The position numbers were made by a program, and so were the translations under genes. Positions 1 through 9,783 of a DNA stretch of 11,959 nucleotides are shown piece by piece. The stretch is from the IMG/VR virus record IMGVR_UViG_648276647_000018. One strand, 5' to 3'. This DNA is from a virus (lineage: Duplodnaviria > Heunggongvirae > Uroviricota > Caudoviricetes). The number at the start of each line of letters is the position of its first letter. Positions within the stretch are counted from its first letter, which is position 1. Below the pieces are notes generated by a model. That model was not told the DNA's origin, did not search any database, and was given only the letters and a program-made list of their open reading frames with translations.

Positions 1-1212
1 GTGGCAAGAACGACACGCCCCCTGACCAACACAGAAGTTCTGCGCGCTAAAGCGTTAGAAAAGGATCTAACGTTACATGATGGCGATGGCCTTTTTCTGC
101 TCGTTAAAACGAACAGTAAGAAGTTGTGGCGTTTCCGTTATCAACGTCCAGCAACAAAACAGCGGACAATGATGGGGCTTGGTGCTTTCCCCGCCCTTTC
201 ACTTGCTGATGCTCGACGGTTAAGAGCGGATTACCTTGCTTTGTTGGCTAATGGTATAGACCCACAAGTTCAAGCTGAATTTATCGAAGAACAACAACAG
301 ATAGCTCTAGACAGTATTTTTTCGACTGTTGCGACCAACTGGTTCCAGATAAAAAGCAAAAGCGTTACCCCTGATTACGCTAAAGATATATGGCGCTCAC
401 TGGAAAAAGACGTATTCCCTGCCATCGGGGAGATTCCTGTCCAGCAAATAAAAGCCCGAACACTAGTTGAAGCCCTTGAGCCAATCAAAGCTCGTGGAGC
501 ACTCGAGACAGTGCGCCGACTTGTACAGCGCATTAACGAGATAATGATTTATGCCGTAAACACTGGTCTGATTGATGCCAATCCAGCATCAGGTGTTGGG
601 ATGGCCTTTGAAAAGCCCAGAAAACAAAACATGCCGACGCTGAGGCCAGAAGAATTACCAAAGCTGATGCGTTCTTTGTTCATGTCAAATCTGTCTGTTC
701 CGACTCGCTGTCTCATTGAATGGCAGCTTCTGACTCTAGTGCGTCCTGCTGAAGCTTCCGGTGCTCGATGGGCAGAGATCGATCTCGATGCAAAGCTCTG
801 GATGATTCCAGCCGAACGGATGAAGGCCAAACGAGAGCACATAGTTCCTTTATCCACGCAGGCATTAGAAATTCTAGAAGTGATGCAACCTATTAGCGCA
901 CATCGTGAGCATGTTTTCCCAAGCAGAAATGACCCTAAACAACCAATGAATAGCCAGACTGCGAATGCCGCGCTTAAGCGCATTGGTTATGGTGGGAAGC
1001 TTGTTGCTCATGGATTACGTTCTATAGCAAGTACAGCACTAAATGAAGCTGGTTTTAATCCGGACGTAATTGAAGCGGCACTTGCTCACAGTGATAAAAA
1101 TGAAGTTCGAAGAGCATACAATCGTTCAACTTACCTTGAACAACGTATAGACTTGATGAATTGGTGGGGTGAATTTGTGCACAACCGCCACCGCCTCATG
1201 CAAGCGATTTAA
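1..1212 (+). CDS. int: P4-type tyrosine integrase. The N-terminus is at or just beyond the window edge (GTG at position 1).
   Basis: The ORF is 403 aa. The N-terminal region (LTNTEV..., DGDGLFLLVKTNSKKLWRFRYQRP) is typical of P4/CP4-57-like integrases. The C-terminus carries HGLRS, LAHS and RRAYNRSTY, the catalytic R-H-R-Y signature of tyrosine recombinases. Confidence 0.9.
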   Translation: MARTTRPLTNTEVLRAKALEKDLTLHDGDGLFLLVKTNSKKLWRFRYQRPATKQRTMMGLGAFPALSLADARRLRADYLALLANGIDPQVQAEFIEEQQQIALDSIFSTVATNWFQIKSKSVTPDYAKDIWRSLEKDVFPAIGEIPVQQIKARTLVEALEPIKARGALETVRRLVQRINEIMIYAVNTGLIDANPASGVGMAFEKPRKQNMPTLRPEELPKLMRSLFMSNLSVPTRCLIEWQLLTLVRPAEASGARWAEIDLDAKLWMIPAERMKAKREHIVPLSTQALEILEVMQPISAHREHVFPSRNDPKQPMNSQTANAALKRIGYGGKLVAHGLRSIASTALNEAGFNPDVIEAALAHSDKNEVRRAYNRSTYLEQRIDLMNWWGEFVHNRHRLMQAI

Positions 1213-1239
1213 TAAGATTGCACAGCAAAGGAGTCTTAA

Positions 1240-2598
1240 ATGCCAAATAACTACCATCAATACATCGAAGACGTTAGTGATGATATAAAGACATGTCTTG
1301 AAGGAATGGGATGCCAACCCATACTTTTTGTTGGATCGGGATTAACCAAGAGATATCTTTCTGGCCCAAACTGGGAAGAACTTCTTCAGCAACTTGCTAA
1401 TGAATGTCCTAACATCGATAAAAGATTTGCCTATTATAAACAGAAATACCCCGAGTTGATTGATATCGGCAGTGTATTTTCTGATTCTTATAACGAGTGG
1501 GCATGGGGTGATGGAGAGAAAGAATTTCCAGCAGAGTTATTTGATGCAGGCAATGAGCCAAGTATTTATTTTAAATACAAAGTATCTAGTATTTTCAACT
1601 CATTGTTACAAGAAAAAGAAATCGTAAACAACGGTGAAATTGAACTTCTGAGAAAGATTCACCCTCATTCAATCATCACAACAAATTACGACAAATTACT
1701 TGAATCGATATATCCTGAGTTTACCCCCATTATAGGCCAAAAAATCCTTTACGCTAATCACGGTAGCATTGGTGAAATACTTAAAATACATGGTTGCTGC
1801 TCCACTCCTGAAAGCATAATAATAAACCGCGATGACTACGATGACTTCATAAAGAAGAAGAAATATTTAAGCGCAAAACTGCTTACTTTCTTTGCTGAAC
1901 ACCCTCTTCTATTTATAGGTTACAGCGCAGAAGACTCGAACATAAAAAACATACTATCTGATATTGATGAACTACTTTCAGAAAATGGAGATGTCATTCC
2001 AAATATATACATTTTAGAATGGACGAGCAAACAAAATGAAAGTGAATACCCACGCCGTGAACGGCTGATTCAAGTATCTGCAAACAAAAGCATTAGAATA
2101 AAAAGTATAGTAGCAAATGACTTCTCTTGGGTATTTTCAGCGTTTGGCGCGAACAGAGCACTTGATAACATAAATCCCAAATTATTGAGGGCACTTTTAG
2201 CTCGCACTTACGATCTCGTCAGAACTGATATACCTCGCAATCCTGTCCAAGTTGATTACCGAGTTTTATCAAGCATTAGCGAGTCAGAAGGTGAATTAGC
2301 GAAATTATATGGTATCGCCACATCGTCAGATGGTATGGCATTTAATGCCAGTTATCCTTTTACTTTAACCACGCTAGGGCAATCACTTGGTTTCAAAGGC
2401 TGGCATGATGCGAACAAACTATTAGAAGTAGTTAAAAACATCACGAACGTAGACATCAAGACATTCGATAACAAATACCACTATGCAATAATGAACGGTG
2501 ATGAGATTCAGTCCCATAGATATTCAAACTATCTTCGAGAACTCCTCGAAAAGGTTAGGGATGGAGAGGAGTTTGAGTTAGGAATAAAGGCTCCATAA
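1240..2598 (+). CDS. SIR2-like (sirtuin-fold, SIR2_2-type) protein, 452 aa, with a C-terminal domain of unknown function; candidate single-gene anti-phage effector.
   Basis: Strong SD (AAGGAG) 6 nt upstream of the ATG. Motifs: PILFVGSGLTKRYL (Rossmann Gly-rich loop, aa 27-40), IITTNYDKLLE (putative catalytic Asn149, codon 1684-1686), ILKIHGC (putative catalytic His184, codon 1789-1791) and LLFIGYSAEDSNI. The gene is clearly more AT-rich than the GC-rich P4 backbone. It lies between int and cos. Confidence 0.85.
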   Translation: MPNNYHQYIEDVSDDIKTCLEGMGCQPILFVGSGLTKRYLSGPNWEELLQQLANECPNIDKRFAYYKQKYPELIDIGSVFSDSYNEWAWGDGEKEFPAELFDAGNEPSIYFKYKVSSIFNSLLQEKEIVNNGEIELLRKIHPHSIITTNYDKLLESIYPEFTPIIGQKILYANHGSIGEILKIHGCCSTPESIIINRDDYDDFIKKKKYLSAKLLTFFAEHPLLFIGYSAEDSNIKNILSDIDELLSENGDVIPNIYILEWTSKQNESEYPRRERLIQVSANKSIRIKSIVANDFSWVFSAFGANRALDNINPKLLRALLARTYDLVRTDIPRNPVQVDYRVLSSISESEGELAKLYGIATSSDGMAFNASYPFTLTTLGQSLGFKGWHDANKLLEVVKNITNVDIKTFDNKYHYAIMNGDEIQSHRYSNYLRELLEKVRDGEEFELGIKAP

Positions 2599-2626
2599 TT
2601 ATTCATATAGCCTTACTACTTTTTAT

Positions 2627-2650
2627 GGCCGCTTTAATAGCGGCTTTTTC
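2627..2650 (+). terminator. Rho-independent terminator downstream of the SIR2-like gene.
   Basis: Stem ggccgct (2627-2633), loop ttaat, stem agcggc (2639-2644), then TTTTT (2645-2649). Confidence 0.5.
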
Positions 2651-2785
2651 ACAGCATTATTCATGCTTCTAGCACGATATGATGAACCGCAATAATCATA
2701 GCTAACAGGATTAATTTAAAGCATTACTCCTCGACTGAAGCGTGCTGTCATGCGAAAAAAATTTAAACTACCACGTTAGCGCGCA

Positions 2786-2804
2786 GTGCTTTCCCCGCCT
2801 CGCC
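2786..2804. other. cos site: 19-nt P2/P4 cohesive-end sequence.
   Basis: gtgctttccccgcctcgcc is the exact reverse complement of the P2/P4 cohesive end GGCGAGGCGGGGAAAGCAC as I recall it. Confidence 0.7.
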
Positions 2805-2906
2805 CGCACGCTTTGCGGGGCGGTTTTAATGCAGTTGCACTGACACGCTCAGACCGCGCCGGGAATGGCGCGGTCTGCAGAAAATGAGGCAGGGAAACGC
2901 ATGCAA

Positions 2907-2939
2907 AGCCATGCACCTTATCGATGCATGGCTTTTTTC
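2907..2939. terminator. Hairpin with T-run between cos and the psu stop; possible terminator, strand uncertain.
   Basis: Stem agccatgca (2907-2915) and tgcatggct (2925-2933), followed by TTTTTT (2934-2939) on the plus strand. A second inverted repeat gaccgcgcc/ggcgcggtc lies at 2852-2875. Confidence 0.4.
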
Positions 2940-2968
2940 AGTAAAAACAGGCGGATTTTCGGGAAATT

Positions 2969-3541
2969 TTACACAGACTGACGTGATGCCAGTTGCGCAC
3001 TTTTACGCGAAAAAATCATGTTCTGCGCAGGGGTGAATTTTTCACGGCTGTCGTCCACCGAAGCCGCGTCAGGCCTGAATCCGATGGTCGTTAAAATGTC
3101 GCTATCCTGTGCGGAATAATTAATTTTTTCCCCCTTCGCAAGCCAGGACAGAAGGGCTTCACGCAGGGCATCTGTGGCACGCTGTATGGCACAGTTTCGG
3201 GCAATGGCCGTCAGCTCACTGTAGCCCATCAGCTCCGGTGCCAGTGCCGCCGCCAGTGCTGTGCCGTGCTGCTGCATAAAATCATTCAGCCGGTCGCGGA
3301 TGCTGATGTGCTGAACGGCTTCATGCGAACGAATATAACGACCGGCGGCCTGATTCACCTGCCATTTTCTGACTTCGATAATATTGCGTAATTCGTCCAG
3401 GCGACTGACGTTTCTGCCTTCTCCTGACAGAAGCCGCAGGTATTCCTGTTCGGCCGCTGCCAGCTCATTTTTGCGTTGCAGCCATGCTGCTTTGTTATTC
3501 TGACAGGTGTCAAAGGCCTGCTGTAAGGCTGTGCTTTCCAT
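2969..3541 (-). CDS. psu: Psu, polarity suppression / capsid decoration protein.
   Basis: 190 aa. The translation MESTALQQAFDTCQNNKAAWLQRKNELAAAEQEYLRLL... matches P4 Psu in sequence and length as I recall it. It is the last gene of the sid-delta-psu operon, read toward cos. Confidence 0.9.
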   Translation of the reverse strand: MESTALQQAFDTCQNNKAAWLQRKNELAAAEQEYLRLLSGEGRNVSRLDELRNIIEVRKWQVNQAAGRYIRSHEAVQHISIRDRLNDFMQQHGTALAAALAPELMGYSELTAIARNCAIQRATDALREALLSWLAKGEKINYSAQDSDILTTIGFRPDAASVDDSREKFTPAQNMIFSRKSAQLASRQSV

Positions 3542-3614: not shown

Positions 3615-4115
3615 TCATTCCAGACGCAGCGAATATGATTGTGTTTTTAACCGTACTGGCGGCAGTTCCTGTTTTTCATGCAGGCGTTCTGCCAGTTCGT
3701 CCGGCGTGACCGGGCGGACAATGAAGCGGGTGATGGTCTGAAGCGTTTTAAACACCAGACCACAGCCCGGATCCGTGCACACATAAAAACGCTCGGTGAC
3801 TTCCTGAGACAGACCCCGCGATGTTCTTGACAGCGCAAGGCCTTTACATCTCCGACAACAATATCCGGTAACAAGCATTCTTTTCGGGCGCTTCATGCTG
3901 CCGGAGGCTGACGTCAGTGAATCGCGGTATCTCTGTTTGCCTGAAATGTATTCCATTCCTGAATCTTTACAGTCAGAGAAAAAGCTTTCACTCGCTTCAA
4001 ATGTCGCAGAGCAATAAATATTCCGGCACTGTGCAATCATTATCTTGGTGCCATCGTCCATGAAATGTGCGCGACGGGTGTGAGCAACATGTCCACACGA
4101 CGGGCAGTAAATCAT
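3615..4115 (-). CDS. delta: Delta, Ogr/Delta-family zinc-finger late-gene transactivator.
   Basis: 166 aa starting at MIYCPSCGHVAHTRRAHFMDDGTKIMIAQCRNIYCSATFEASESFF, with a second Ogr-like module (YVCTDPGCGLVFKT). The start is the ATG at 4113-4115 with an AGGA SD. The longer 185-aa ORF in the track is an in-frame upstream extension. Confidence 0.85.
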   Translation of the reverse strand: MIYCPSCGHVAHTRRAHFMDDGTKIMIAQCRNIYCSATFEASESFFSDCKDSGMEYISGKQRYRDSLTSASGSMKRPKRMLVTGYCCRRCKGLALSRTSRGLSQEVTERFYVCTDPGCGLVFKTLQTITRFIVRPVTPDELAERLHEKQELPPVRLKTQSYSLRLE

Positions 4116-4846
4116 GACAGCAGTCCTCTGGCCTTCAGCTCTGCTCCCTGCTGGTCTATTTTGTCCTGCCACACCTTGCGCTGTGCCGGTGTGCCTGCCA
4201 CCTCATAATCCATGTGCGGGAGTGTTGCCGCTGACAGTCCGGTCAGCCGGAGAACCGGCTCGCCGGTGAGGCTGATTTGCATCTGTTTAATTTTCTGTTC
4301 CAGCGATGATTTCACCTGCTGCATGACAGCCTTTTCCGGTGCGACGTAGCCCTGATGGCCGGTGGTGTTGGCGAGCGGATTTTCCTGTACCAGAATGCTC
4401 AGATGCATTGCCCGGACAAGCGCCTCACAGGTTTCATTCAGGGCGTGTTCCAGCTCATGCTCTGCATACAGACTCAGAAGGTGATGATGTGCCTTCCGGT
4501 AGGCGGTGGCCGTGCTGTCACACGCCCCTTTCAGGCGTTCACGTTCGAAATTCAGCACCACGGCCAGATTGTCATATTCCTGTACCAGCTCCCGGCGTGC
4601 CACGCGCTCAATGTGGCGCTGTTTCAGCTCGTCGCTCAGGACACCACCGGCTGCACGAAAGGCCGTGCGCCAGTCGTCAGCGTCATTTCCGTCGGCCTGC
4701 GTCAGCGCATTTTTTTCCTGCTCTGCCCGTTCAATGGCCGTGACGGTCTCATCCATCAGGCGGGCGTTCTCAAGATGAGCGGCTCTGGCCTTTTCCAGTT
4801 GTGCCAGTGCGGGTTGCAGATATTCAGGGATGGTGTTGTCAGACAT
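4112..4846 (-). CDS. sid: Sid, capsid size-determination (external scaffold) protein.
   Basis: 244 aa starting at MSDNTIPEYLQPALAQLEKARAAHLENARL with a GAGGAG SD upstream. The stop at 4112-4114 overlaps the delta ATG (ATGA overlap). The 266-aa ORF in the track is an upstream extension. Confidence 0.85.
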   Translation of the reverse strand: MSDNTIPEYLQPALAQLEKARAAHLENARLMDETVTAIERAEQEKNALTQADGNDADDWRTAFRAAGGVLSDELKQRHIERVARRELVQEYDNLAVVLNFERERLKGACDSTATAYRKAHHHLLSLYAEHELEHALNETCEALVRAMHLSILVQENPLANTTGHQGYVAPEKAVMQQVKSSLEQKIKQMQISLTGEPVLRLTGLSAATLPHMDYEVAGTPAQRKVWQDKIDQQGAELKARGLLS

Positions 4847-4918
4847 TTTCCGGCTCCTCGTCACTTCAGGTTGAGAAAATTGTGACGTACACCGGACAGC
4901 AACACGACGCATTGCAGA

Positions 4919-5664: not shown

Positions 5665-5756
5665 TGATGCCCGCTCTGCAAAAAGTCCCTTTTTCTGGCT
5701 TGCCTTTTTCCGGCATTTGCGGATATAGTTTTTCCGCTGCCGCAAAATCGGCAGCC

Positions 5757-6047
5757 GGGCGTAGGAACCCGTGTAACTCGAAGGCGACATATGACGCGCC
5801 ATGCGTCTTTTTTTGTGTCGCAATCAACGCCACAGAGCGCCAGATTATGGTGTGGCGTGTGGTTTGCCGTGCAGGTATGATCCTGTTCGCAATCGCATGT
5901 TATGCCACTGAGTCAATGGTAGCTCAGGCGGGGCAGCCTCCGGGCTGGCCGGTATTCTTCGAGGCCGGTATTCCTACCCCCGTCTGGGCTATCGCCATCG
6001 AGCGTAGGAACTCCGGCGATAGCAGTTATTTGCTACTCGAAGGAGAC
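5757..6047 (+). promoter_or_regulatory. CI-RNA-type immunity region: seqA-like and seqC-like direct repeats flanking a complementary seqB-like element.
   Basis: gcgtaggaac...ctcgaagg occurs at 5759-5784 and again at 6002-6043. Between them, cttcgag (5957-5963) and ttcctac (5971-5977) are the antiparallel complements of both halves. A 9-bp inverted repeat gctatcgcc/ggcgatagc lies at 5978-6023. Confidence 0.45.
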
Positions 6048-7449: not shown

Positions 7450-9783
7450 ATGAAAATGAACGTAACCGCCACCGTCAGCCATGCGCTCGGCCACTGGCCG
7501 CGTATTCTCCCGGCGCTGGGGATTCAGGTGCTGAAAAACCGTCATCAGCCCTGTCCGGTCTGTGGCGGGAGTGACCGCTTCCGTTTTGATGACAGGGAGG
7601 GGCGCGGCACCTGGTACTGCAATCAGTGTGGTGCCGGTGACGGCCTGAAACTGGTTGAAAAGGTGTTTGGTGTTTCCCCGTCCGATGCGGCCGCAAAGGT
7701 GGCTGCCGTGACCGGCAGCCTGCCCCCGGCTGACCCGGCAGTGACGGCTGCCGCCGGTGCTGAAACAGACGCTGCCCGGAAGAACGCCGCCGCACTGGCA
7801 CAAACCCTGATGGCGAAAACCCGTCCCGGAACCGGTAACGCCTACCTGACCCGCAAGGGCTTTCCCGGCCGGGAATGCCGGATGCTGACCGGCACACACA
7901 GAGCCGGTGGCGTGAGCTGGCGCGCCGGTGACCTTGTGGTGCCACTGTATGACGACAGCGGCGAACTGGTTAACCTTCAGTTAATCAGTGCTGACGGCCG
8001 TAAGCGCACCCTGAAAGGCGGACAGGTCAGGGGCACCTGTCACACCCTTGAAGGACAGAATCAGGCAGGAAAACGTCTGTGGATAGCGGAGGGATACGCG
8101 ACCGCACTTACCGTGCATCACCTGACCGGTGAAACGGTGATGGTGGCGCTTTCTTCCGTGAACCTCCTTTCTCTGGCCAGCCTTGCCCGACAGAAGTATC
8201 CGGCCTGTCAGATTGTCCTTGCCGCAGACCGTGACCTCAGCGGTGACGGCCAGACAAAAGCCGCCGCAGCCGCAGATGCGTGTGAGGGCGTTGTTGCCCT
8301 GCCGCCGGTCTTCGGTGACTGGAATGATGCCTTCACGCAGTACGGCGGGGAGGCCACCCGTAAGGCCATTTACGATGCCATCCGGCCACCGGCTGAAAGC
8401 CCGTTCGACACCATGAGCGAAGCGGAGTTTTCCGCCATGAGTACCAGCGAAAAGGCCATGCGTATCTATGAGCATTACGGCGAGGCGCTCGCGGTCGATG
8501 CCAACGGCCAGCTTCTGTCCCGTTATGAAAATGGTGTCTGGAAGGTGCTGCCACCACAGGACTTTGCCCGGGATGTGGCCGGGCTGTTTCAGCGTCTGCG
8601 CGCGCCGTTCTCCTCCGGGAAGGTGGCCTCCGTGGTGGACACCCTGAAGCTGATTATTCCGCAGCAGGAAGCCCCCTCCCGCCGCCTGATTGGCTTTCGT
8701 AACGGCGTGCTCGACACGCAGAACGGCACGTTCCACCCGCACAGTCCGTCACACTGGATGCGTACCCTGTGCGATGTGGATTTCACCCCGCCGGTGGAAG
8801 GGGAAACGCTGGAAACCCACGCCCCCGCGTTCTGGCGCTGGCTTGACCGTGCCGCCGGTGGCCGTGCGGAAAAACGCGACGTGATTCTGGCCGCACTGTT
8901 TATGGTGCTGGCAAACCGCTACGACTGGCAGCTCTTTCTGGAGGTGACCGGTCCCGGCGGCAGCGGCAAAAGTATCATGGCCGAAATAGCCACCCTGCTG
9001 GCCGGGGAGGATAACGCCACGTCGGCCACCATCGAGACGCTGGAATCCCCGCGTGAACGTGCCGCGTTAACTGGCTTCTCACTGATACGCCTGCCGGACC
9101 AGGAAAAATGGAGCGGCGACGGTGCCGGACTCAAGGCCATCACCGGCGGCGACGCGGTGTCCGTTGACCCGAAATACCGGGATGCGTACTCCACGCATAT
9201 CCCGGCGGTGATTCTGGCCGTGAACAATAACCCGATGCGCTTCACCGACCGCAGCGGCGGCGTGTCACGCCGGCGGGTGATTATTCACTTCCCGGAACAG
9301 ATAGCCCCGCAGGAGCGCGACCCGCAGCTTAAGGACAAAATCACCCGCGAGCTGGCGGTCATCGTGCGTCACCTGATGCAGAAGTTCAGCGACCCGATGC
9401 TCGCCCGGTCACTGCTTCAGTCCCAGCAGAACTCAGACGAGGCACTGAACATCAAACGGGATGCCGACCCGACGTTTGATTTTATCGGCTATCTGGAAAC
9501 CCTGCCGCAGACCAGCGGCATGTATATGGGGAACGCCAGTATCATCCCGCGTAATTACCGTAAATACCTCTATCACGCCTATCTGGCCTACATGGAGGCA
9601 AACGGCTACCGGAATGTACTCAGTCTGAAAATGTTCGGGCTGGGGCTGCCGGTGATGCTGAAGGAATACGGACTGAATTACGAGAAGCGCCATACCAAAC
9701 AGGGGATACAGACCAACCTGACGCTGAAAGAGGAAAGCTACGGCGACTGGCTGCCAAAATGTGACGACCCTGCAACAACCTGA
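7450..9783 (+). CDS. alpha: Alpha: bifunctional DNA primase / helicase with C-terminal iteron-binding domain.
   Basis: 777 aa with an AAGGAGA SD. N-terminal zinc ribbon (CPVCGGSDRFRFDD...WYCNQCG). TOPRIM-like motifs (IAEGYATALTV, LAADRD). Walker A GPGGSGKS (nt 8951-8974). The length matches P4 alpha. Confidence 0.95.
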   Translation: MKMNVTATVSHALGHWPRILPALGIQVLKNRHQPCPVCGGSDRFRFDDREGRGTWYCNQCGAGDGLKLVEKVFGVSPSDAAAKVAAVTGSLPPADPAVTAAAGAETDAARKNAAALAQTLMAKTRPGTGNAYLTRKGFPGRECRMLTGTHRAGGVSWRAGDLVVPLYDDSGELVNLQLISADGRKRTLKGGQVRGTCHTLEGQNQAGKRLWIAEGYATALTVHHLTGETVMVALSSVNLLSLASLARQKYPACQIVLAADRDLSGDGQTKAAAAADACEGVVALPPVFGDWNDAFTQYGGEATRKAIYDAIRPPAESPFDTMSEAEFSAMSTSEKAMRIYEHYGEALAVDANGQLLSRYENGVWKVLPPQDFARDVAGLFQRLRAPFSSGKVASVVDTLKLIIPQQEAPSRRLIGFRNGVLDTQNGTFHPHSPSHWMRTLCDVDFTPPVEGETLETHAPAFWRWLDRAAGGRAEKRDVILAALFMVLANRYDWQLFLEVTGPGGSGKSIMAEIATLLAGEDNATSATIETLESPRERAALTGFSLIRLPDQEKWSGDGAGLKAITGGDAVSVDPKYRDAYSTHIPAVILAVNNNPMRFTDRSGGVSRRRVIIHFPEQIAPQERDPQLKDKITRELAVIVRHLMQKFSDPMLARSLLQSQQNSDEALNIKRDADPTFDFIGYLETLPQTSGMYMGNASIIPRNYRKYLYHAYLAYMEANGYRNVLSLKMFGLGLPVMLKEYGLNYEKRHTKQGIQTNLTLKEESYGDWLPKCDDPATT

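What the first reader, a model, noticed from the sequence alone, without database searches (positions are those of the whole stretch)
1240..2598. Stand-alone SIR2-like gene in the P4 int-cos defense hotspot: candidate single-gene NAD-targeting anti-phage system
The 452-aa product has a sirtuin-like N-terminal domain with the Gly-rich loop (aa 27-40), TTNYD (Asn149), KIHG (His184) and LLFIGYS, the same motif set as defense SIR2 domains such as ThsA and DSR. It sits in the variable slot between int and cos, where P4 carries gop/beta/cII and where P4-like satellites are known to swap in anti-phage cargo. No partner gene is present: no TIR protein (Thoeris), no HerA, no short Argonaute, no STAND NTPase, and it is far shorter than DSR1/DSR2. 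It therefore does not match any SIR2 system architecture I recognise and may be an undescribed or poorly characterised single-protein system.
Basis: partly seen in the sequence, partly recalled or inferred. Interest (0 to 1): 0.85.

Follow-up and report, generated by a model that had tools for sequence, protein, structure and literature searches.

The report
Catalogued lone SIR2 gene on P4 satellite
A P4-like phage satellite carries one sirtuin-like gene, probably an NAD-destroying enzyme, in its variable cargo slot; the identical gene was already listed as a candidate anti-phage system in 2022 and gave no protection when tested, so it is real but not new.

Summary
Window 1240-2598 (+) encodes a 452-aa protein with a SIR2_2 domain (Pfam E 4e-27). 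The predicted fold matches the defence NADases ThsA, KomC and DSR2. It is the only gene between the P4 integrase and an exact cos site, and no conserved partner appears in 38 related loci.

It is not undescribed. The identical protein (WP_001133507) is system #39 ("SIR2_2, 40 occurrences, likely a NADase") in Rousset et al. 2022. They cloned window 1119-3090 as pFR88 and list it only among the "additional tested systems", not the validated ones. The panel was eight coliphages plus five P2-like phages.

What I add:
- True PDC-S25 proteins share the SIR2 and linker but have a different tail.
- The gene starts 27 nt after int with no promoter-like site upstream, so pFR88 may have expressed it poorly.

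Best reading: a self-contained, abortive-infection NADase whose trigger is unknown (confidence about 0.55). Interest is low to moderate.

The parts
1..1212 (+). P4-type tyrosine integrase (int), 403 aa; left border of the hotspot
   Evidence: ORF. Annotated as an integrase domain protein in an identical locus. A homolog carries Arm-DNA-bind_3, Phage_int_M and Phage_integrase domains.
1228..1233 (+). Shine-Dalgarno AAGGAG, 6 nt before the ATG. The gap between the int stop and the SIR2 start is only 27 nt, with no sigma-70-like site on the + strand in 1-1240.
   Evidence: Sequence; promoter scan.
1240..2598 (+). SIR2-like gene, 452 aa (WP_001133507; Rousset 2022 system #39; the pFR88 cargo)
1240..2139 (+). 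SIR2 catalytic domain, aa 1-300: Gly-rich loop at aa 27-40, N149 (nt 1684-1686), H184 (nt 1789-1791)
   Evidence: Pfam SIR2_2 covers aa 144-266. AF2 pLDDT is mostly 80-95. Foldseek top hits are ThsA 8bto (E 1.7e-11), SeThsA, KomC and DSR2.
2155..2328 (+). Conserved Arg-rich linker, aa 306-363 (..PKLLRALLARTYDLVRTDIPRNP..). It is strongly conserved but poorly modelled in the monomer.
   Evidence: L316, R317, A321, R322, Y324, R328, D330, I331 and P332 are invariant. pLDDT is below 50. The PDC-S25 profile match extends to aa 376, so this region is shared with that family.
2332..2574 (+). C-terminal small winged-helix-like domain, aa 365-445 (MerR/excisionase type); putative sensor
2627..2650 (+). 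Intrinsic-terminator-like hairpin (7-bp GC-rich stem, 5-nt loop) followed by UUUUU, 29 nt after the stop codon
   Evidence: RNA fold -11.9 kcal/mol, z-score -2.2; sequence.
2786..2804 (-). P4 cos site GGCGAGGCGGGGAAAGCAC, exact; right border of the cargo slot
   Evidence: One match, none in 200 shuffles.
2969..3541 (-). psu (polarity suppression protein); conserved flank of the hotspot
   Evidence: ORF; annotation; Psu Pfam domain in a homologous element.

Best explanation
The gene encodes a self-contained, defence-type SIR2 NAD+ hydrolase carried as the single cargo of a P4-like satellite's hotspot.

Shown:
- A SIR2 fold closest to ThsA, KomC and DSR2, with the catalytic Asn and His invariant.
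- A family-specific C-terminal module, a conserved linker plus a small winged-helix-like domain, that always travels with this SIR2.
- No conserved partner gene.
- Homologs sit in satellites, at prophage accessory-gene positions and in defence islands.

Inferred: the protein is kept inactive until its C-terminal module recognises an infection cue. The fold suggests a nucleic acid or a phage protein. Activation, probably by oligomerisation as in ThsA, DSR2 and KomC, then lets SIR2 hydrolyse NAD+. The infected cell stalls and the invader cannot replicate (abortive infection).

Also inferred: the gene is probably co-transcribed with int, because it starts 27 nt after the int stop and has no promoter-like site of its own.
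For: - Domain and fold: Pfam SIR2_2 E 4e-27. PADLOC PDC-S25 2e-84, ThsA 1e-20, LmuA, Dsr1 and Dsr2. The best sequence matches in PDB are SeThsA, DSR2, ThsA and KomC, and H184 aligns with DSR2 H171. Foldseek top hits are all defence SIR2 NADases.
- Conservation: the full length is conserved, and N149 and H184 are invariant from Escherichia, Pseudomonas, Vibrio and Cohnella to Methanoperedens.
- C-terminal module: found only in this family and modelled as a winged helix.
- Genomic contexts: the P4 hotspot in E. coli and E. kobei; between GmrSD and DarTG in P. putida; beside Eco57I-like, SNF2, Mrr and toxin-antitoxin genes in Thioalkalivibrio; at the edge of a Pf prophage in P. aeruginosa; between the lysis cassette and HNH/terminase in a prophage.
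- No partner: no shared neighbour in 38 loci.
- Foreign origin: GC is 0.35-0.39 against 0.52-0.64 for the satellite backbone.
- Prior annotation: Rousset et al. call it 'likely a NADase'.
Against: - The only direct test I found is negative. pFR88, which is exactly window 1119-3090, is not among the systems that protected MG1655 against 8 coliphages. Only the TIR-NLR system protected E. coli C against P2-like phages.
- NADase activity has not been measured for this protein.
- The domain is near neutral in charge (median pI 7.9) and its invariant residues are aromatic or polar rather than basic. DNA binding is therefore not assured.
- The gene is rare: 7 of 5426 complete E. coli genomes.
Confidence: 0.55

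Rival explanations
1. It is an orphan effector. Like ThsA, the protein is an NADase switched on by a small-molecule signal, but the signal is made by a protein encoded elsewhere in the host or helper phage. Alone it is inert.
For: ThsA is the closest known structure and PADLOC family after PDC-S25. The cloned single gene gave no defence. The invariant W388, H389, D410, N411, Y413, H414, Y428 and S429 are aromatic or polar residues that could form a ligand pocket.
Against: There is no SLOG or Macro domain: the ThsA profile matches stop at the SIR2 part, and the C-terminal fold is a winged helix. No TIR or other conserved neighbour appears in 38 loci. The gene moves alone on satellites and prophages across phyla, which argues against dependence on a chromosomal partner.
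Confidence: 0.12
2. It serves the satellite's own life cycle or competition between mobile elements rather than general phage defence. One possibility is an NAD-dependent modifier or regulator, co-expressed with int, that binds DNA through its winged helix.
For: The gene is operon-like with int, with a 27-nt gap and no promoter-like site. The C-terminal fold resembles excisionase, MerR and partition-protein DNA-binding domains. No anti-phage phenotype was seen in the published panel.
Against: The same full-length family occurs outside satellites, in chromosomal defence islands and in unrelated prophages. There is no match to the canonical sirtuin family or its zinc ribbon; Pfam gives only SIR2_2. 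All the nearest structures are NADases, not deacylases. The hotspot slot is otherwise filled by defence cargo.
Confidence: 0.13
3. It is a functional defence gene with a narrow spectrum, or one that was poorly expressed in the published test. The negative result would then be a false negative.
For: The pFR88 insert starts only 121 bp before the ATG, inside int, and that stretch has no sigma-70-like promoter. Purifying selection acts over the whole length. A preprint reports that a different or unidentified ~440-aa 'sole-Sir2' was also negative at first, while a close homolog protected against T2 and T4 and the protein hydrolysed NAD+ in vitro.
Against: Expression from pFR88 was never measured, so this is untested in either direction. 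Vector read-through may have been enough. I could not show that sole-Sir2 belongs to the same family: no sequences are available, and its Sir2 domain is described as C-terminal.
Confidence: 0.4

Closest known systems
Rousset et al. 2022 P4-hotspot system #39 ('SIR2_2, likely a NADase'; plasmid pFR88)
   Same: The protein sequence is identical over the roughly 400 residues shown in the paper's tables, and the locus type is the same. The pFR88 primers match window 1119-1138 and 3071-3090 with no mismatch.
   Different: Nothing differs: it is the same entity. The paper gives no mechanism or domain analysis and lists it as tested but not validated.
PADLOC candidate PDC-S25 (prophage and satellite SIR2 proteins of 512-547 aa, e.g. 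in Lactococcus phage BK5-T and Bacillus phage phBC6A51)
   Same: The SIR2 domain and the conserved linker are shared: aa 12-376 match profile positions 10-358, E 2e-84. Both are single-gene and carried on mobile elements.
   Different: True PDC-S25 proteins match the whole 517- or 528-position profile. They end in a different tail of about 150-190 aa, where this protein has its ~80-aa winged-helix-like domain. Identity is 26-39%.
Thoeris ThsA (SIR2-SLOG NADase)
   Same: It is the closest solved structure for the SIR2 domain (8bto E 1.7e-11, 7uxt, 6lhx) and has a similar total length of about 470 aa. The catalytic Asn and His are conserved.
   Different: There is no SLOG domain and no ThsB/TIR neighbour. 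The ThsA profile matches cover only its SIR2 part, positions 81-217 of 478.
DSR2 (defence-associated sirtuin 2)
   Same: It is a single-protein SIR2 NADase with the sensor on the same chain. H184 aligns with the catalytic H171.
   Different: DSR2 is about 1000 aa, with a long helical-repeat C-terminus that binds the phage tail tube (established knowledge). This protein has 452 aa and a small winged-helix-like C-terminus. The NCBIfam Dsr2 score is 14.6 against a cutoff of 1400.
Kongming KomC, SIR2-HerA (Nezha) and SIR2-type LmuA
   Same: They have a related SIR2 NADase fold.
   Different: All need partner proteins (KomA/KomB, HerA, LmuB/LmuC), and none is present here or conserved in related loci.
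'sole-Sir2' (bioRxiv 10.1101/2024.12.27.630466) and lactococcal AbiH
   Same: Both are precedents for a small stand-alone Sir2-like protein acting as a one-gene defence. Sole-Sir2 hydrolyses NAD+ in vitro, and a homolog protects against T2 and T4. AbiH is reported to resemble sirtuins.
   Different: Sole-Sir2 is described with a C-terminal Sir2 domain and no sequences were available, so I could not test family identity. No AbiH model was among the PADLOC matches.

Membership tests
SIR2_2 / defence-type SIR2 NADase superfamily | Significant match to Pfam PF13289 above its gathering score | tested here: met
   95.4 bits against a cutoff of 24.5, E 4.3e-27.
SIR2_2 / defence-type SIR2 NADase superfamily | Catalytic Asn and His in the TTNYD and K[IV]HG motifs, plus the Gly-rich NAD loop | tested here: met
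   N149, H184, G32 and G34 are invariant in 42 homologs. H184 aligns with DSR2 H171.
SIR2_2 / defence-type SIR2 NADase superfamily | Sirtuin-like Rossmann fold | tested here: met
   The AF2 model matches ThsA, KomC and DSR2 SIR2 domains: E 1e-11 to 1e-8, probability 1.0.
SIR2_2 / defence-type SIR2 NADase superfamily | NAD+ hydrolase activity | not testable with these tools
   This needs a biochemical assay, and I found none published for this protein.
Rousset 2022 P4-hotspot system #39 | Same protein, as the single gene between int and cos/psu of a P4-like satellite | tested here: met
   Identical sequence over the residues shown in Tables S1B and S2B; accession WP_001133507 appears in Table S1A.
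PADLOC PDC-S25 | Full-length match to the PDC-S25 profile (517 or 528 positions) | tested here: not met
   Only profile positions 10-358 of 517 are matched. Real members match positions 8-515.
Thoeris (ThsA) | C-terminal SLOG/STALD signal-binding domain | tested here: not met
   ThsA profile matches are confined to the SIR2 part. The C-terminal fold is winged-helix-like.
Thoeris (ThsA) | Adjacent ThsB (TIR) gene | tested here: not met
   None in the window and none in 38 related loci.
DSR1 / DSR2 | A protein of about 1000-1200 aa with a long C-terminal sensor, and a match at the NCBIfam or PADLOC threshold | tested here: not met
   452 aa. NCBIfam Dsr2 scores 14.6 bits against a cutoff of 1400. 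PADLOC Dsr1 and Dsr2 give E 1e-5 and 2e-3, over the SIR2 part only.
SIR2-HerA, SPARSA, Kongming, Lamassu-SIR2, Avs5 | An obligatory partner or fused domain (HerA, pAgo/APAZ, KomA/B, LmuB/C, STAND NTPase) | tested here: not met
   No such gene or domain is in the window or conserved next to homologs.
Canonical sirtuin deacylases (CobB/Sir2, Pfam PF02146) | Match to PF02146 and a Cys4 zinc-ribbon module | tested here: not met
   Pfam reports only SIR2_2 at E<=1. The sequence has no paired CxxC motifs.
sole-Sir2 (CRISPR-supervised candidate) | Sequence homology to the published sole-Sir2 proteins | not testable with these tools
   No sequences or supplementary files are held for the preprint. Its described domain order differs.
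Validated anti-phage defence system | Protection of a naive host against at least one phage | tested here: inconclusive
   I did not test this. In the literature, pFR88 is among the 'additional tested systems' and not the validated ones, with 8 plus 5 phages. Expression was not verified, and the insert carries only 121 bp upstream.

The most novel reading that the evidence does not exclude
The 452-aa protein is a one-chain sensor-effector. A MerR/excisionase-like winged helix and the conserved Arg-rich linker would directly recognise invading nucleic acid, or a DNA-bound phage protein, and switch on SIR2 NADase activity by oligomerisation. That would be a SIR2 architecture not yet described. 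The gene would be transcribed with int, so it would be expressed on the integrase's schedule. The published negative test would then reflect a missing promoter or a narrow phage range.
Probability: 0.15. Interest if true: 0.6.

Novelty: already known. Interest (0 to 1): 0.27.

Why it matters
As it stands, this is a correct re-identification of a published candidate. It confirms that reading raw sequence can pick defence cargo out of a P4 hotspot, but it adds no new system.

The remaining value lies in what is still unexplained. The family is strongly conserved and widely transferred between organisms, yet it has no shown activity, trigger or role. Its family-specific C-terminal module offers a concrete handle for finding the trigger. 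The int-SIR2 operon arrangement gives a specific, testable reason why the one published assay may have been a false negative.

Tried and rejected
- **Partner gene in the window.** ORFs of at least 20 aa in 2560-2980 are all short, overlap cos or psu, or lie inside the SIR2 gene. Rejected.
- **Conserved neighbour.** I clustered 898 neighbouring ORFs from 38 loci. The only recurrent clusters were the P4 backbone or closely related prophages. Unannotated neighbours from six genomes gave no convincing cross-matches.
- **Promiscuous sensor domain.** A full phmmer scan of 1.84 billion cluster representatives with aa 296-452 found only this family, with 161 hits, nearly all at the same position or fragments.
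- **Sequence-level identity of the C-terminus.** Pfam at E<=10 gave only a noise hit to Toxin_YhaV (E 0.18). An hhalign comparison with the window's own AlpA/Vis-type HTH protein gave nothing. The viral structure library gave no significant match. The afdb50 library was unavailable.
- **Later characterisation.** Searches for the accession, PDC-S25, sole-Sir2, and SIR2 with winged helix found no paper on this family. The SIR2 mentions in the papers concern SIR2-HerA or known systems.
- **Own promoter.** No sigma-70-like site lies on the + strand in 1-1240.
- **Window RNA and tRNA features.** No tRNA was found in the window. Rfam finds only the P4 immunity RNAs, far from the gene.

Full report
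**1. What is in the sequence**

The window is an integrated P4-like satellite. Its genes, in order, are int (1-1212, +), the gene in question (1240-2598, +), psu (2969-3541, -), delta, sid, the immunity region and the alpha primase-helicase (7450-9783). The chromosomal gene glaH follows from 10982. Rfam finds the P4 CI (C4) antisense RNA and its targets at 5723-5999.

The 19-nt P4 cos sequence GGCGAGGCGGGGAAAGCAC occurs once, exactly, at 2786-2804, where none is expected by chance. The ORF therefore fills the int-cos/psu slot alone. The 370 bp between its stop codon and psu hold no other credible ORF.

A terminator-like hairpin with a U-run sits at 2627-2650. The gene's GC content is 0.35-0.39, against 0.52-0.64 for the satellite backbone, which marks it as imported cargo.

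**2. The protein**

The product has 452 aa.
- PILFVGSGLTKRYL at aa 27-40
- TTNYD with N149
- KIHG with H184
- LLFIGYS at aa 223-229

All the key residues are invariant in an alignment of 42 homologs of 52-96% identity. Pfam gives SIR2_2 at E 4e-27. NCBIfam gives no equivalog: Dsr2 scores 14.6 bits against a cutoff of 1400. PADLOC's best model is the candidate PDC-S25 (E 2e-84), followed by ThsA (1e-20), LmuA, Dsr1 and Dsr2.

By sequence, the nearest solved structures are SeThsA, DSR2, BcThsA and KomC, and H184 aligns with the catalytic H171 of DSR2. An AlphaFold2 model (mean pLDDT 76, SIR2 part mostly 80-95) matches ThsA, KomC and DSR2 SIR2 domains at E 1e-11 to 1e-8. The sirtuin fold is therefore confirmed, and it is of the defence-NADase type. 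There is no match to the canonical Sir2 family and no zinc ribbon, so it is not a deacylase-type sirtuin.

**3. It is already catalogued and has been tested**

RefSeq calls the protein WP_001133507, 'SIR2 family protein'. That accession appears at least 21 times as a one-gene 'SIR2_2' arrangement in the portion of Table S1A of Rousset et al. 2022 that is held as text (PMC9122126).

Table S1B lists it as system #39: 'SIR2_2, 40 occurrences, likely a NADase'. Table S2B lists plasmid pFR88 ('SIR2, P4, 1 gene, E. coli M605') with the same protein. Its two primers match window 1119-1138 and 3071-3090 without mismatch.

The paper states that validated systems are in Table S2A and 'additional tested systems' in S2B. 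Seven of the P4 systems protected MG1655 against at least one of eight coliphages. Of the 18 systems moved into E. coli C, only TIR-NLR protected against P2 and four P2-like phages.

A second group re-derived the hotspot catalogue (PMC11754643). Its one-gene 'Sir2-like (likely a NADase)' cluster corresponds to Rousset system #9, a different and longer SIR2 protein. I found no paper that characterises the #39 family.

**4. What I can add: architecture**

The protein has three parts.

- **SIR2 domain, aa 1-300.**
- **Linker, aa 306-363.** It is very strongly conserved (PKLLRALLARTYxLVRxDIP, with L316, R317, A321, R322, Y324, R328, D330, I331 and P332 invariant). Even so, it is modelled with pLDDT below 50 in the monomer. 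That combination fits a segment that only folds in an oligomer or on a ligand.

A phmmer scan of 1.84 billion cluster representatives with aa 296-452 found 161 hits, nearly all at the same position in proteins of about 450 aa or in fragments. The module therefore belongs to this family and is not a shuffled sensor domain.

**5. Relation to PDC-S25**

The PADLOC match covers only profile positions 10-358 of 517. Prophage proteins of 512-547 aa, including those of Lactococcus phage BK5-T and Bacillus phage phBC6A51, match the whole profile. They share the SIR2 domain and the linker with the window protein but end in a different tail of 150-190 aa. The two are sister families built on one SIR2-plus-linker core with alternative C-terminal modules. 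This is the pattern expected of an effector joined to interchangeable sensors.

**6. Is it really stand-alone, and where does the family live?**

Full-length homologs of about 450 aa occur in Enterobacteriaceae, Pseudomonas, Xenorhabdus, Vibrio, Thioalkalivibrio, Cohnella, other Firmicutes and Methanoperedens. The contexts I examined:
- P4-like hotspots in E. coli and Enterobacter kobei.
- Between GmrSD and DarTG in P. putida.
- Beside a 1673-aa Eco57I-type enzyme, an SNF2 helicase, Mrr and toxin-antitoxin pairs in Thioalkalivibrio.
- At the edge of a Pf filamentous prophage in P. aeruginosa.
- In an integrase-bounded island in Cohnella.
- In a prophage, between the holin-lysozyme-spanin cassette and HNH/terminase.

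IMG/VR holds 31 loci with matches over essentially the full length of the query. Clustering 898 neighbouring ORFs from 38 loci found no neighbour shared beyond closely related elements. Unannotated neighbours from six genomes are not related to each other.

**7. Expression, and a caveat on the negative test**

The ATG lies 27 nt after the int stop codon, behind a good Shine-Dalgarno sequence. No sigma-70-like promoter is found on the + strand anywhere in 1-1240. The E. kobei element has the same 26-nt spacing. Co-transcription with int is the simplest reading, though it is an inference.

pFR88 begins only 121 bp upstream of the ATG, inside int. It may therefore have lacked the native promoter. 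Expression was not reported, so the negative result is weak evidence against function.

A preprint on a ~440-aa 'sole-Sir2' had a similar experience. The first constructs were negative, yet a close homolog protected against T2 and T4, and the protein converted NAD+ to ADPR in vitro. That protein is described with a C-terminal Sir2 domain and no sequences are available, so I cannot say whether it is the same family.

**8. Most likely mechanism**

The best-supported explanation is a self-contained abortive-infection NADase. The C-terminal module senses an infection cue, the protein assembles, and SIR2 destroys NAD+. My confidence is about 0.55.

The fold, the catalytic residues, the single-gene status and the mobile-element and defence-island contexts are shown. 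The activity, the trigger, the oligomerisation and the operon are inferred.

The rivals:
- An orphan ThsA-like effector needing a signal made elsewhere (0.12). The absence of a SLOG domain and of any conserved TIR neighbour argues against it.
- A satellite life-cycle or DNA-bound regulatory role (0.13). The family's presence outside satellites argues against it.
- A qualifier compatible with the main reading: the published negative is a false negative caused by expression or phage range (0.4).

**9. Verdict**

The gene is a correct call of defence-type cargo, but it is an already published, already tested and still unvalidated candidate. Interest is low to moderate. What remains open is the trigger and the role of the family-specific C-terminal module.

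Noticed in passing
window 5723-5999 (+): Rfam finds the P4 immunity RNAs: the C4 (CI) antisense RNA at 5912-5999, isrK at 5736-5813 and the c4-a1b1 target at 5723-5775. This confirms an intact P4-type immunity region.
   Followed up: no
NZ_CM149565.1 1180502-1183060 (hit H7): In E. coli strain MEI4BO-21 the same SIR2 gene (99.5% identity) is split by an IS5-like ISKpn26 insertion. This is a natural knockout of the cargo.
   Followed up: no
L013 8457-9353 (-): The Enterobacter kobei P4-like element carries the 96%-identical SIR2 gene plus one more gene between it and psu, on the opposite strand. It encodes a 298-aa protein with hydrophobic N-terminal segments that look like transmembrane helices (not tested with a TM predictor) and no significant Pfam match. 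It may be a second cargo or an accessory gene.
   Followed up: partly
L002 9387-10157 (+): In P. aeruginosa the 73%-identical SIR2 gene lies beside a Pf-type (Zot) filamentous prophage. It is followed 34 nt downstream by a gene for a 256-aa protein with a hydrophobic N-terminal stretch and no Pfam match. That protein is not convincingly related to the E. kobei 298-aa protein (E 0.004 in a 12-sequence database).
   Followed up: partly
L001 1-10337: In E. coli strain E47 the P4-like element sits directly next to a P2-like prophage and an annotated anti-phage dCTP deaminase. Helper, satellite and another defence gene are therefore adjacent in one locus.
   Followed up: no
L046-L083 (IMG/VR contigs); phage records MZ417522, NC_004820, NC_002796: A sister family of 512-547-aa prophage SIR2 proteins forms the true PDC-S25. 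Members include proteins of Lactococcus BK5-T, Bacillus phBC6A51 and Mycolicibacterium phage J1. They share the SIR2 and linker core but have a different, uncharacterised C-terminal tail of about 150-190 aa.
   Followed up: partly
L020 4670-10543: In an enterobacterial-type prophage the 53%-identical homolog sits between the holin-lysozyme-spanin cassette and the HNH endonuclease and terminase genes. This is a typical position for prophage accessory genes. The gene functions were read from the translations, not from a domain search.
   Followed up: partly
window 3615-4172 (-) and 4112-4912 (-): The longest ORFs for delta (185 aa) and sid (266 aa) overlap by about 60 nt and are longer than the RefSeq calls in the identical locus (166 aa and 244 aa). 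The upstream start codons are probably not the ones used.
   Followed up: no
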